From: Alphaproteobacteria bacterium UBA6062 | Lineage (GTDB): Bacteria; Pseudomonadota; Alphaproteobacteria; Sneathiellales; Sneathiellaceae | Length of the DNA: 61,387 nucleotides | Assembly (NCBI GenBank): GCA_002428885.1 | Contig: DIYE01000338.1 | Coordinates: forward strand, 1 to 61,387 | Direction: 5' to 3' | Translations under genes and position numbers: made by a program | Part shown: one piece after another, positions 839 through 3,959 of the stretch | Layout of the letters: every line of letters starts with the position of its first letter | Numbering within the stretch: position 1 is the first letter of the stretch | The notes under the pieces: generated by a model | What the model was told of the DNA's origin: nothing | Seen by the model: the letters and a program-made list of their open reading frames with translations, nothing else | Database searches by the model: none

Positions 839-914
<76 letters not shown>

Positions 915-1120
915 CTTTTCACCCCATCCTCTCAGACTCCTCTAAAAGCAAGAATGGCTGAGCAATTGAAGCAGTTCGAAACCCTTCATTTCATACATAA
1001 CCCAATCTGTCGGCAAAACTTGACCCATTTTGGAGTTAGTGCTTTTGTTAATTTAACGGAAGCACTTTAAAAGCCTATGAAAAAGCGATACGGAAGTTTC
1101 CGGAGTACGTATAAAGGCTT

Positions 1121-1681
1121 TTAAATAGCTGCTTCAATAATCCCTTGTTGCTGTGCCCAACTAAACCAATCTTTCTCTTTAGAGCAGGTCACATCCAGCT
1201 TGTGCTCAAGCTCATGATTATCAGTATAGAGCATCAGATTATCACACTCCCACCTCGCAGATGGGGCGATCAGACCATCGAATCCCAAGAAGTTGAGAGC
1301 AGCACCAATTTTTTGAGTGGTCAAATATTCTCTTTCTTGATAATGCTCCATATCCACACCAAGCGCGCATAAATCAACTTCTAACAATTTCAAAGAATTT
1401 GATGTACTTACCTCTATAGTGTGCAGCATTAGTTGCTTCTGAGGAATTGGAGTAAGCAGGGCCAAGTAAGAAGCCACCTCAGCCAAAGCACCCTCAGGTT
1501 CCAAACTTGTATATAGTATCGGAATAGTCAACCCGTCCCTCTCAGGGAGTGCCCAACGCCCTCCATTGGAAGACGCAGCGCACGGTTCAGCATTATTTGC
1601 TGTTACTCTATATACAAATCCACTGAACTCTATTGACGAGTACGACGAAAGTTTGTCTGTCAGTACTGGGTCATGAAGCAT
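1121..1681 (-). CDS. RES domain toxin (NAD+ phosphorylase / ADP-ribosyltransferase-like)
   Basis: VYR...GGRW...LYTSLEPEGALAEV...GLIAPSAR...NLMLY; the R, E and S signature residues are all present. Confidence 0.88.
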   Translation of the reverse strand: MLHDPVLTDKLSSYSSIEFSGFVYRVTANNAEPCAASSNGGRWALPERDGLTIPILYTSLEPEGALAEVASYLALLTPIPQKQLMLHTIEVSTSNSLKLLEVDLCALGVDMEHYQEREYLTTQKIGAALNFLGFDGLIAPSARWECDNLMLYTDNHELEHKLDVTCSKEKDWFSWAQQQGIIEAAI

Positions 1682-1693
1682 TAATTAATTCCC

Positions 1694-2032
1694 TTACATG
1701 TGAACAGCATCTCTAATCTGGTTCACTAGTAGAATAACTTTTTCTATCTCTCCTTTTTGGATCATCGAAGCAGGGGAAACGTCACCTAATAGTTTCTGCC
1801 TTGAAAAAATCCACTGACGCGCTTCATTGGGGGTATAAAAACCAGATAACTTATCAACGATATATTCAAGCTCAAGTAAAGCAGTCTCTTTGCTAGACTG
1901 CGGATAGGCCTTTCCTTGGTTCCAGCGAGAAACTGTTTCTGGACGAGTTCCCAATAAATTAGCTACATCTACATTGCGCATTGCAGCCTTACTTCTTATT
2001 AAGTCCAGGTTTCTTGCAACAACAGAACTCAT
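1694..2032 (-). CDS. Xre-HTH + MbcA/ParS-type antitoxin
   Basis: N-terminal Cro/C1 HTH (DVANLLGTRPETVSRW); C-terminal EARQWIFSRQKLLGDVSPASMI toxin-binding motif; 12 bp upstream of the RES gene. Confidence 0.85.
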   Translation of the reverse strand: MSSVVARNLDLIRSKAAMRNVDVANLLGTRPETVSRWNQGKAYPQSSKETALLELEYIVDKLSGFYTPNEARQWIFSRQKLLGDVSPASMIQKGEIEKVILLVNQIRDAVHM

Positions 2033-2061
2033 ATCATTGCTCCTTTCCTATAGTACATAAA

Positions 2062-3363
2062 TCACTTCTTTTGCTTTCTTGCCGTAGAGGACAAAGGCTT
2101 CTTCGGTGCTTCAATAGCATGTTCTTTATAGTTATCAACCAAATGACTCATTGTCCGGCGAAACTTACTAACAACACTCTGCTTTTTCTCAACTTTCCCC
2201 TTGAAAACATCAGACACCGATTTCAGTGAAGCTGCAGCAGCAATATCATCAGATACTTTTCGAATCCGCTCATCCAAGAATCTCTGTGGCCTAATTGAAG
2301 GAGGCATATGAATGAGCGACTTCACTTCTTCACTTCTCTGATGAATAAAATGTCGTACGGGGCGAGCAACCATATCTTTGATACCATTTGGGCAACAATG
2401 AGTGTCCTTACATCCATACCGGCTCTTTACACGCGTCGAGCTAGAAAACAGCCCTTGAGCTTCATTTGGCTTCAACAGCATATCTAATTCAGGAAGATAG
2501 ACGCGAGTGGGTTGCGTCCATACATTACTTTCTTGTTGCGGCTTCTTCCAACCGGCAATGCGAAAATGCTCCTTTTCGGCAATTCCATGAGCAATACCAC
2601 CTACAGCTCCAAACGCCAAAAGACTGGTTCCGACCAAACCTCCTACATGATCGGCTACTAAGGGGACGCCAAAAGACTTCAATTCTTCACACGCAGCAAT
2701 ATAAGCCTTTGTTTTTTCGCCTGTCGCGTCTGAACCAAAATTCTCAATTCTAAGCCATATAGCGTCAAATGGAGCATCAGAGATTGCACCGATTATTGCT
2801 CTAAATTGGTGCGTATCACGCATCACTTTCATTGGAAGAGCAAGTGGATAAATCAGCTCCACATCCTGCGGCAACTCTTCAAGTTCATCTTGAACAAACT
2901 TCATCATCTCAATATCAGCGCGCAACCATTGATCATTTGCGGAGTTTAGCAAGTGAGTTGGTCCAAGAATTTGATTAAACTGTGCCTCGACAGCAAACTC
3001 AACCATCTGCTGAGCACGACCCATACCAGCTGCTCCGATGAAGTCATCTACTTTGTGATGCCTCTCTAAACCCCAAGGCAACTTTGCTAGGCTTGCATTG
3101 TGACCACCAATCGTAGCCGATGCATGTGTCTTAGTGTCTAAAATCAGATCAATGCCTTTCTTCGCCGTCTCGATTCTTAGTTCTTTGTGACGCTCAACAC
3201 TCTGGGCATCGATAACAACTCCAATGAACCCATCTTCCCCCTCCGCCATCACATCCATTACTGCTCGGTGTTGATTCCAACCGACTCTCAAATACCATCC
3301 CAATGAATCATCATTTTCACGCAAGCCTTCTGGACGAGGCAAATGAATAACATTACTTGCCAT
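2062..3363 (-). CDS. Hypothetical ~433-aa protein, probable alpha/beta (TIM-barrel-like) fold with C-terminal Cys/His cluster
   Basis: Long ORF; ATG 3363 preceded by AAGGTGA; 29 bp upstream of the antitoxin; CKDTHCC...RHFIH. The fold is inference. Confidence 0.75.
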   Translation of the reverse strand: MASNVIHLPRPEGLRENDDSLGWYLRVGWNQHRAVMDVMAEGEDGFIGVVIDAQSVERHKELRIETAKKGIDLILDTKTHASATIGGHNASLAKLPWGLERHHKVDDFIGAAGMGRAQQMVEFAVEAQFNQILGPTHLLNSANDQWLRADIEMMKFVQDELEELPQDVELIYPLALPMKVMRDTHQFRAIIGAISDAPFDAIWLRIENFGSDATGEKTKAYIAACEELKSFGVPLVADHVGGLVGTSLLAFGAVGGIAHGIAEKEHFRIAGWKKPQQESNVWTQPTRVYLPELDMLLKPNEAQGLFSSSTRVKSRYGCKDTHCCPNGIKDMVARPVRHFIHQRSEEVKSLIHMPPSIRPQRFLDERIRKVSDDIAAAASLKSVSDVFKGKVEKKQSVVSKFRRTMSHLVDNYKEHAIEAPKKPLSSTARKQKK

Positions 3364-3433
3364 TTTCAAAATCACCTTTCAAGCATCTCGCACAATACAA
3401 ATTGACATATTAGATGCGTTTTTTAATGATTTT

Positions 3434-3461
3434 AATGTAGTGTTTATAGTTGACATTTCAA
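3434..3461 (-). promoter_or_regulatory. Candidate promoter/operator of the islet operon
   Basis: Minus strand TTGAAA-N16-TACATT; TTGACATTTCAA imperfect palindrome (3450-3461) overlaps the -35; TTGACAT recurs at 3402-3408. The region is AT-rich, so a chance match is possible. Confidence 0.35.
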
Positions 3462-3959
3462 TTGTTTTTTTAGAATTTTGTCACATTAATATTCGCCGCA
3501 AATTTCTGAGCGGGTAATGATACGCGAGGGAAGAAGCTTATAGCCCCTTACTCTTACCACCGTTGAGATCCTCCCGCTCGCAGCATGGAGGTCCGACCTT
3601 CCCGGCCACTGAAGTTAGTCGGTATAGCCCCAATGATTACCCCAACCTCTAACACCTCACCATAGCCTGTTCAGAGGCGCACCCACTTGAGTGTTCATAA
3701 AACCCTATCGATATTCATCAAACTGACCTCGAGGAAACTACGGTGTCTGGAAGTGTGCAATTAATGTTCACTATATACTGCTCGATTAACAACTGACTGC
3801 ATAAACGCGGCAAACATCTTACGGTACATTAAAAAGCGGTAATCAGATTATTCAGCGTTCTGAATTCAAGGTTTCAGTCAAGGACCGTTGAATTTATGCC
3901 TCATCCATGCTCTTATAAGAAAAAAGCGAACTAACAAAAAATAAGAATAAGAGGGAAAA

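What the first reader, a model, noticed from the sequence alone, without database searches (positions are those of the whole stretch)
1121..3363. Tripartite islet at tRNA-Phe: unknown enzyme + Xre/MbcA antitoxin + RES toxin (candidate defence system)
Seen: three co-oriented genes separated by 29 and 12 bp, directly behind tRNA-Phe, in AT-richer DNA. Two 60-nt lines I counted were 43% GC, against 52% and 73% for two lines in the downstream genes. The RES protein keeps its R, E and S residues. Known: RES-Xre modules (MbcTA, ParST) are normally two-gene NAD+-targeting type II TA systems, and tRNA-adjacent islets often carry anti-phage genes. Inference: the large third gene leading the operon is a dedicated partner (sensor, modifier or second effector), making a three-component system I cannot assign to a named family.
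Basis: partly seen in the sequence, partly recalled or inferred. Interest (0 to 1): 0.8.

Follow-up and report, generated by a model that had tools for sequence, protein, structure and literature searches.

The report
TGT-fold third gene of MbcTA toxins
A three-gene cassette couples an MbcTA-type NAD+-destroying toxin-antitoxin pair to an unclassified protein predicted to fold like tRNA-guanine transglycosylase, and that protein likely acts as the trigger that releases the toxin, possibly against phage.

Summary
The triad is real and conserved. Gene A (433 aa, no library family) is followed by the antitoxin in 54 of 56 and by the RES toxin in 53 of 55 GTDB loci. The three co-diverge, and the link survives a switch to head-to-head order in Actinomycetota. 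A's confident model (pLDDT 94) matches tRNA-guanine transglycosylases best (Z 20), keeps a zinc site and one pocket aspartate, and apparently lacks the TGT nucleophile. The pair's closest solved relative is M. tuberculosis MbcTA, and all six plasmid pairs nearly identical to an MbcTA orthologue carry an A homologue. Dependence is one-way: A almost never lacks the pair, but 25 of 72 pairs lack A, through about 13 apparent separate losses. The same domain is fused to Ser/Thr kinases in Bacillota. Best reading: A senses a nucleobase-bearing cue and frees the toxin. Anti-phage function is unproven: neighbours show no raw defence-gene enrichment (18 of 231 against 11 of 148), though the nearest relative fills the same slot with a nuclease-like gene. 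A 2026 preprint describes parallel TIM-B/RES systems; A is not detectably TIM-B. New variant of a known kind.

The parts
839..914 (+). tRNA-Phe(GAA); its 3' end marks the left edge of a variable slot
   Evidence: homology to the nearest relative ends at 919
920..3886 (.). 2967-bp AT-rich cassette slot with no integrase ORF and no att-like repeat; G005:C498 holds a 342-aa Mrr_cat-like nuclease gene here, G005:C236 a YdjM hydrolase gene
1121..1681 (-). Gene C: MbcT-like RES toxin, 186 aa, predicted NAD+ phosphorylase with the catalytic residues kept
1694..2032 (-). Gene B: MbcA-like antitoxin, 112 aa, HTH plus Xre/MbcA/ParS C-terminal domain
2062..3363 (-). Gene A: 433-aa TGT-superfamily TIM barrel with a predicted zinc site (C318, C323, C324, H338) and conserved R26, D76, P135, H137, D150, D/E238, G260, F267; no family in Pfam, NCBIfam, PADLOC or PHROGs
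3364..3461 (-). Promoter-like leader with two ATGTCAA boxes (3456-3450, 3408-3402); a similar box recurs upstream of A in relatives and may be the antitoxin operator (inferred)

Best explanation
Genes B and C form an MbcTA-type toxin-antitoxin pair, and gene A, inherited with them, encodes a predicted TGT-fold protein that likely serves as the sensor releasing the toxin when the cell is invaded. Shown: linkage, co-divergence, one-way dependence, kept RES catalytic residues, placement in a swappable slot. By homology to MbcTA: B's C-terminus blocks C, and freed C turns NAD+ and phosphate into nicotinamide and ADP-ribose-1''-phosphate, arresting or killing the cell. Inferred: A's barrel pocket binds a nucleobase-bearing cue (a nucleotide, a modified base, or phage nucleic acid) without doing canonical base exchange; A then displaces, modifies or destabilises B; the result is abortive infection or exclusion of a mobile element. 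Pairs that lose A stay behind as silent addiction modules.
For: A with B 54 of 56 and with C 53 of 55; 22 of 22 non-kinase plasmid A hits have B adjacent. The pair lacks A in 25 of 72 metagenome loci; 16 A-less pairs fall in about 13 places nested among A-bearing ones, two with A remnants, so A is not needed for neutralisation. MbcA alone neutralises MbcT (PMC6436930 passages). RES is broken in 4 of 16 A-less against 3 of 41 A-bearing loci (p 0.09). The A domain is joined to a different effector, an intact-looking Ser/Thr kinase, in Priestia and two Atlas clusters, as a portable regulator would be. Best fold matches are TGTs (Z 20.1, 19.8, 18.4; first unrelated barrel 14.8). D76 is kept in 168 of 172 sequences while the last barrel strand has no conserved aspartate. 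The nearest relative has a nuclease-like gene in the slot.
Against: No phenotype, ligand or complex was tested. PADLOC hits among neighbours are not enriched: 18 of 231 against 11 of 148 controls; only after dropping generic models post hoc is it 12 against 2, p 0.09. The nuclease hit is below the Pfam cut-off (20.1 against 21 bits) and other genus members carry non-defence genes at this tRNA. One-way dependence fits a downstream effector or a second toxin equally well. The active-site mapping rests on strand order, not a residue-level superposition; profile alignment to TGT was not significant. The related TIM-B proteins are proposed to be negative regulators. A-less pairs come from contigs, so A could lie elsewhere in those genomes.
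Confidence: 0.42

Rival explanations
1. A acts downstream of the toxin: it binds or processes ADP-ribose-1''-phosphate made by C, as a receptor-effector or as a clean-up enzyme that permits recovery.
For: Explains why A needs the pair and not the reverse. RES enzymes are listed among signal-generating enzymes (PMC9503650 passage). Conserved R26, H137, R/K205 and D/E238 could bind a phosphorylated nucleotide (inference).
Against: The Priestia kinase fusion has no RES gene among 11 annotated neighbours. MbcT kills with no partner.
Confidence: 0.15
2. A is a second toxin, for example a base-excising enzyme on tRNA or DNA, held in check by B or by the BC complex.
For: TGT fold with a retained zinc subdomain, which in TGTs supports nucleic-acid binding. 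A is almost never without B. A Gordonia plasmid lists A and B but no RES (pseudogenes are not listed there and I did not check).
Against: No conserved aspartate on the last strand (strand-order inference). Kinase fusions lack B. B is the same size as MbcA, with no extra domain.
Confidence: 0.13
3. A is a constitutive brake on the toxin, as proposed for TIM-B, and a phage product that disables A unleashes C.
For: The TIM-B model covers a TGT-related barrel coupled to a RES toxin (bioRxiv 10.64898/2026.10.19.760177 section 33). The Priestia fusion has a convergent overlapping gene, as TIM-B loci do.
Against: A was lost about 13 times with RES usually intact (12 of 16). A dedicated antitoxin is already present. 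A is not detectably TIM-B.
Confidence: 0.12
4. The three genes act together in stress response, persistence or mobile-element maintenance and not in phage defence; A tunes the pair to a metabolic cue.
For: No raw defence enrichment. Carried on plasmids and beside TniQ transposon, integrase and IS genes. A 2024 paper states no RES TA system had been implicated in immunity (PMC11535050 passage).
Against: Patchy spread and replacement by a nuclease-like gene; real RM, HEPN, TIR and CapP neighbours in some loci.
Confidence: 0.15
5. A is unrelated cargo that the addiction pair merely stabilises.
For: The pair survives without A in a third of loci.
Against: Co-divergence down to about 20% identity across phyla, kept through a change of gene orientation; no other gene recurs.
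Confidence: 0.03

Closest known systems
MbcTA (Rv1989c-Rv1990c), RES-Xre type II TA; PDB 6FKG; PMC6436930
   Same: Best solved relative of both B (E 5.4e-21) and C (E 1.8e-8); antitoxin-then-toxin order; R27, R47, Y58, E69 equivalents kept. Plasmid orthologues about 92% (B) and 84% (C) identical to it, counted from the printed alignments, carry gene A.
   Different: Described as two genes; no third gene in the passages I saw. Here a co-evolving TGT-fold gene leads the operon. MbcT S126 and Y28 positions are not kept.
TIM-B systems (PF14350 Beta_protein, sce7725; phage P4 gop-beta); bioRxiv 10.64898/2026.10.19.760177
   Same: A TGT-related barrel coupled to a toxin, RES among them.
   Different: A has no PF14350 or NF033831 hit; hhalign 0.2% and 2.1% while sce7725 against PF14350 gives 92.7%. 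The sce7725 loci have a nuclease-like gene and a 360-aa RES-like protein with no Xre detected (L219, L220). That section names no MbcA/Xre antitoxin. Its figure and supplement were not seen.
tRNA-guanine transglycosylases (bacterial TGT, arcTGT, QTRT2) and DpdA
   Same: Best structural matches, Z 20.1-15.4 over 274-297 residues, rmsd 3.5-3.8; Cys/His zinc site after the barrel.
   Different: 8-11% identity; no PF01702 hit; zinc motif is C-x4-C-C...H; nucleophile apparently absent; the host has its own intact tgt.
Cap10 of type IV CBASS (bioRxiv 10.1101/2025.04.06.647259)
   Same: A TGT-family protein remodelled to bind a partner protein in anti-phage defence (Z 15.4).
   Different: Cap10 keeps a catalytic aspartate, lacks the zinc site, and needs QueC-like Cap9 and a Gly-rich N-terminus on its partner; none of these is found here.
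Toxin-antitoxin-chaperone systems (TAC; CmdTAC, recalled)
   Same: A third gene tied to a TA pair; recalled as the phage-sensing layer.
   Different: A is not SecB-like and the pair survives its loss.

Membership tests
MbcTA-type RES-Xre type II TA (genes B, C) | HTH plus Xre/MbcA/ParS C-terminal antitoxin directly upstream of a RES toxin | tested here: met
   RES follows B in 76 of 77 metagenome loci
MbcTA-type RES-Xre type II TA (genes B, C) | Residues essential in MbcT (R27, R47, Y58) | tested here: met
   R25, R42, Y57 align to them and are kept in 53, 53, 52 of 53; essentiality
MbcTA-type RES-Xre type II TA (genes B, C) | NAD+ phosphorolysis and active-site block by the antitoxin C-terminus | not testable with these tools
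   inferred from homology only
MbcTA-type RES-Xre type II TA (genes B, C) | Two-gene operon | tested here: not met
   three-gene unit here and in 53 of 55 A loci; two-gene forms look derived
ParST subfamily (NF049844/NF049845) | Score above curated cut-offs | tested here: not met
   17.3 against 110 and 27.8 against 90 bits
TGT superfamily (gene A) | TIM barrel with TGT-type C-terminal subdomain | tested here: met
   top five of 48,161 chains are TGT-family; Z 20.1, rmsd 3.5, 297 aligned
TGT family proper (PF01702) | Profile match | tested here: not met
   no hit at E<=1; hhalign <=1%
TGT family proper (PF01702) | Base-binding aspartate on strand 3 and nucleophilic aspartate on strand 8 | tested here: inconclusive
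   by strand order D76 kept (168 of 172); strand 8 has A/E/S at 258, H/S at 259; no residue-level superposition available
TIM-B / Beta_protein (PF14350, NF033831) | Profile match | tested here: not met
   with positive control 92.7%
TIM-B / Beta_protein (PF14350, NF033831) | TGT-related barrel coupled to a toxin gene | tested here: met
TIM-B / Beta_protein (PF14350, NF033831) | Linked REase or metallopeptidase gene | tested here: inconclusive
   a six-sequence REase profile found nothing in the A/B loci; no fourth conserved gene; profile is thin
Type IV CBASS Cap10 / Dpd | Linked QueC-like or other deazaguanine genes; Gly-rich acceptor N-terminus | tested here: not met
   no recurring fourth gene in 57 loci; motif scan and N-termini
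TAC / CmdTAC (recalled) | SecB-like chaperone required by the antitoxin | tested here: not met
   A is a 433-aa barrel; pair intact without A in 12 of 16
Catalogued anti-phage system (PADLOC 2.0) | Match to a system's protein models | tested here: not met
   no hit for A or C; only generic HTH hits for B; DefenseFinder not available

The most novel reading that the evidence does not exclude
MbcTA-type toxins are the effector arm of a three-part immune system whose sensor is a repurposed tRNA-guanine transglycosylase that reads a phage-specific nucleobase or nucleotide; the two-gene forms studied so far are remnants that lost the sensor, and the same sensor drives Ser/Thr kinases in Bacillota.
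Probability: 0.25. Interest if true: 0.9.

Novelty: new variant of a known kind. Interest (0 to 1): 0.7.

Why it matters
The physiological role of RES toxin-antitoxin systems was called unresolved in 2024 (PMC11535050). Finding that the MbcTA clade ancestrally travels with a third, TGT-fold gene supplies a concrete candidate for what switches these toxins on, testable with three small genes in a laboratory strain. It also adds an unclassified branch (980 clusters at 50% identity) to the TGT-fold proteins recruited into conflict systems, beside DpdA, Cap10 and TIM-B, and one that has been paired with two unrelated effectors.

Tried and rejected
Sequence searches of A against Pfam, NCBIfam, PADLOC, PHROGs and PDB gave nothing usable. 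Foldseek on PDB mixed GH20 and TGT hits at TM below 0.5; viral structures gave only generic barrels. No A homologue in 50,697 phage records or IMG/VR. No longer fusions found, weak evidence. Atlas named-cluster search gave no usable hit. hhalign to TGT was uninformative. No att-like repeats; promoter and terminator counts are at chance level. No fourth conserved gene, and no substitute partner in A-less loci. Raw defence enrichment negative; the Fisher test used 19 where the recount is 18, which does not change the result. A 400-genome draw around G453 found no further antitoxin. No RNA holder listed; the one DNA run may be the source. Earlier findings: none. Ten literature searches listed no description of this triad. 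Whether M. tuberculosis itself has gene A near mbcA was not tested; I recall no room for it in the H37Rv annotation.

Full report
Observation. The three minus-strand genes, their 29- and 12-bp gaps and tRNA-Phe at 839-914 are as described. The operon points towards the tRNA and ends 206 bp from it. GC is 0.431 in 920-3886 against 0.515 for the rest of the window.

The slot. Among 30 relatives no listed DNA match covered the triad (54 weak matches were not listed). In G005:C498 the flanks are 96% and 93% identical, stop at window 919 and resume at 3887; between them lies one 342-aa AT-rich gene with a weak restriction-endonuclease hit (Mrr_cat E 7e-4, below cut-off). A second copy, G005:C236 (81%), holds a YdjM hydrolase. 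Other genus members carry assorted genes there, including AlkZ-like, DUF1826 and integrase-like ones. So this is a swappable cassette site, without integrase or att repeat, and not a defence-only site.

Genes B and C. C is a RES domain. Profiles of 47 antitoxins and 43 toxins from related loci hit M. tuberculosis MbcA (E 5.4e-21) and MbcT (E 1.8e-8) as best solved relatives. R25, R42, Y57 and E68 align with MbcT R27, R47, Y58 and E69; the first three are essential for toxicity, MbcT makes ADP-ribose-1''-phosphate, and MbcA's C-terminus blocks it (PMC6436930, passages seen). These residues are near-invariant in 53 homologues.

Gene A. No family library or PDB sequence matches it, yet it has 379 homologues in one search and 980 clusters at 50% identity in another. 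The AlphaFold2 model (pLDDT 94.2, pTM 0.91) is a TIM barrel whose five best matches among 48,161 chains are arcTGT (Z 20.1, rmsd 3.5, 297 residues), bacterial TGT (19.8), QTRT2 (18.4), DpdA and Cap10 (15.4 each); the first unrelated barrel scores 14.8. In 172 homologues D76, P135, H137, D150, G260 and C318/C323/C324/H338 are kept at 90% or more; the zinc residues are lost in some roseobacter copies. By strand order D76 matches TGT's base-binding aspartate and the last strand lacks the nucleophile (TGT motif positions read from the host's own tgt; their roles are recalled or). This mapping is an inference, since profile alignment to TGT was not significant.

Linkage. Of 57 GTDB loci (several are near-duplicates), B follows A in 54 of 56 with room and C in 53 of 55; the misses are two degraded copies and one with C displaced 2.4 kb. 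No fourth gene recurs. Pairwise identities of A, B and C correlate at 0.85-0.89 over 44 loci (kin are not independent). On plasmids, 22 of 23 records with A have B adjacent; the exception is a Priestia Ser/Thr kinase with A as its C-terminal domain and no RES nearby, an architecture seen in two Atlas clusters of 78 and 85 members. In Clavibacter, Rhodococcus, Gordonia bronchialis and mycobacterial plasmids A lies head-to-head with B. Of 36 plasmid records with B, 32 have A adjacent by coordinates; two Pannonibacter records (one inspected) and Gordonia terrae lack it and M. rufum is unresolved.

MbcTA connection. The M. poriferae plasmid pair is about 92% (B) and 84% (C) identical to the 6FKG chains (counted). 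It and the five other plasmid pairs at 97% or more to it all have an A homologue within about 90 bp (6 of 6); homology to A is E 3.6e-14 and 2.2e-14 over residues 18-360 with a profile holding no actinobacterial sequence. I could not inspect the M. tuberculosis chromosome.

Reverse test. Querying metagenomes with the antitoxin (best 80 of 483 relatives kept), RES follows in 76 of 77 but A precedes in only 47 of 72, with no substitute gene. On a FastTree tree of B+C (111 rows, rooted on Clavibacter, sample biased towards A-bearing loci) the 16 A-less rows fall in 13 places, several as well-supported sisters of A-bearing rows; L153 and L154 keep a remnant of A, and RES is broken in 4 of 16 A-less against 3 of 41 A-bearing loci (p 0.09). 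Repeated loss of A is the simplest reading. A is therefore not needed to hold the toxin, which argues against a chaperone or essential brake.

Defence context. Up to six nearest genes from 47 of the 57 loci (10 near-duplicates left out) gave 18 PADLOC hits in 231 proteins against 11 in 148 controls from this window and genus: no enrichment. Dropping generic ATPase, methyltransferase, HTH, kinase and RecD models afterwards leaves 12 against 2 (p 0.09). Plasmid copies sit by TniQ transposons, IS elements, a restriction endonuclease and a UvrD/ATPase pair. None was found in phages. Defence is plausible (about 0.6) but not shown.

Literature. Cap10 shows a TGT fold remodelled for protein partners in defence (bioRxiv 10.1101/2025.04.06.647259, parts 1-2 of 5 read). 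A 2026 preprint defines TIM-B (PF14350) as TGT-related and coupled to many effectors including a RES toxin, as a proposed negative regulator (10.64898/2026.10.19.760177, section 33 and passages; figure and supplements not seen and could bear on novelty). A is not detectably TIM-B: hhalign gives 0.2% and 2.1% where sce7725 against PF14350 gives 92.7%, and the sce7725 loci pair with a 360-aa RES-like protein and no Xre. PMC11535050 and PMC9503650 were seen as passages, PMC13069673 as a term search with no relevant hit, PMC7291234 as a listing. Ten searches listed no account of the triad; subscription journals are not covered.

Mechanism and verdict. A functional three-gene unit: about 0.9. A as trigger of an MbcTA-type toxin: 0.42; rivals are a downstream receptor (0.15), a non-defence stress role (0.15), a second toxin (0.13), a brake (0.12) and cargo (0.03). 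It works like an MbcTA pair with an added TGT-fold regulator; B and C meet the family tests, A belongs to no named family tested. New variant of a known kind, interest 0.7.

Noticed in passing
L074:674-1699 (-), G005:C498: A 342-aa AT-rich gene with a weak Mrr_cat nuclease N-terminus and an unassigned C-terminal part fills the same slot; no PADLOC hit. Candidate single-gene defence factor.
   Followed up: partly
L098:5077-7746: Priestia plasmid: Ser/Thr kinase fused to the A domain, overlapped by a convergent 223-aa gene with a PD-(D/E)xK-like look and no Pfam hit; resembles the TIM-B convergent nuclease layout.
   Followed up: partly
window 3364-3461; L001-L048 leaders: Conserved leader upstream of A: TTGCGCA in 11 of 14 relatives and [AT]GTCAA[TC] in 11 of 14; the window has two ATGTCAA boxes 48 bp apart. 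Possible antitoxin operator.
   Followed up: partly
L095, L097, L099: Roseobacter plasmid copies of A have lost the zinc cysteines while keeping the triad.
   Followed up: no
L210:2590-4300: Gordonia bronchialis plasmid lists A and the antitoxin head-to-head but no RES gene, beside a nucleotidyltransferase-like and a phosphotransferase gene.
   Followed up: no
L091: The triad is cargo between two TniB/TniQ transposon modules on a Chelativorans plasmid.
   Followed up: no
L082, L087, L088, L090: Several genus members carry repeated tRNA-Phe 3' fragments downstream, marking tandem integrations at this tRNA.
   Followed up: no
window 3462-3886: About 425 bp of AT-rich DNA inside the slot, upstream of A, with no ORF of 70 aa or more; unexplained.
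   Followed up: no
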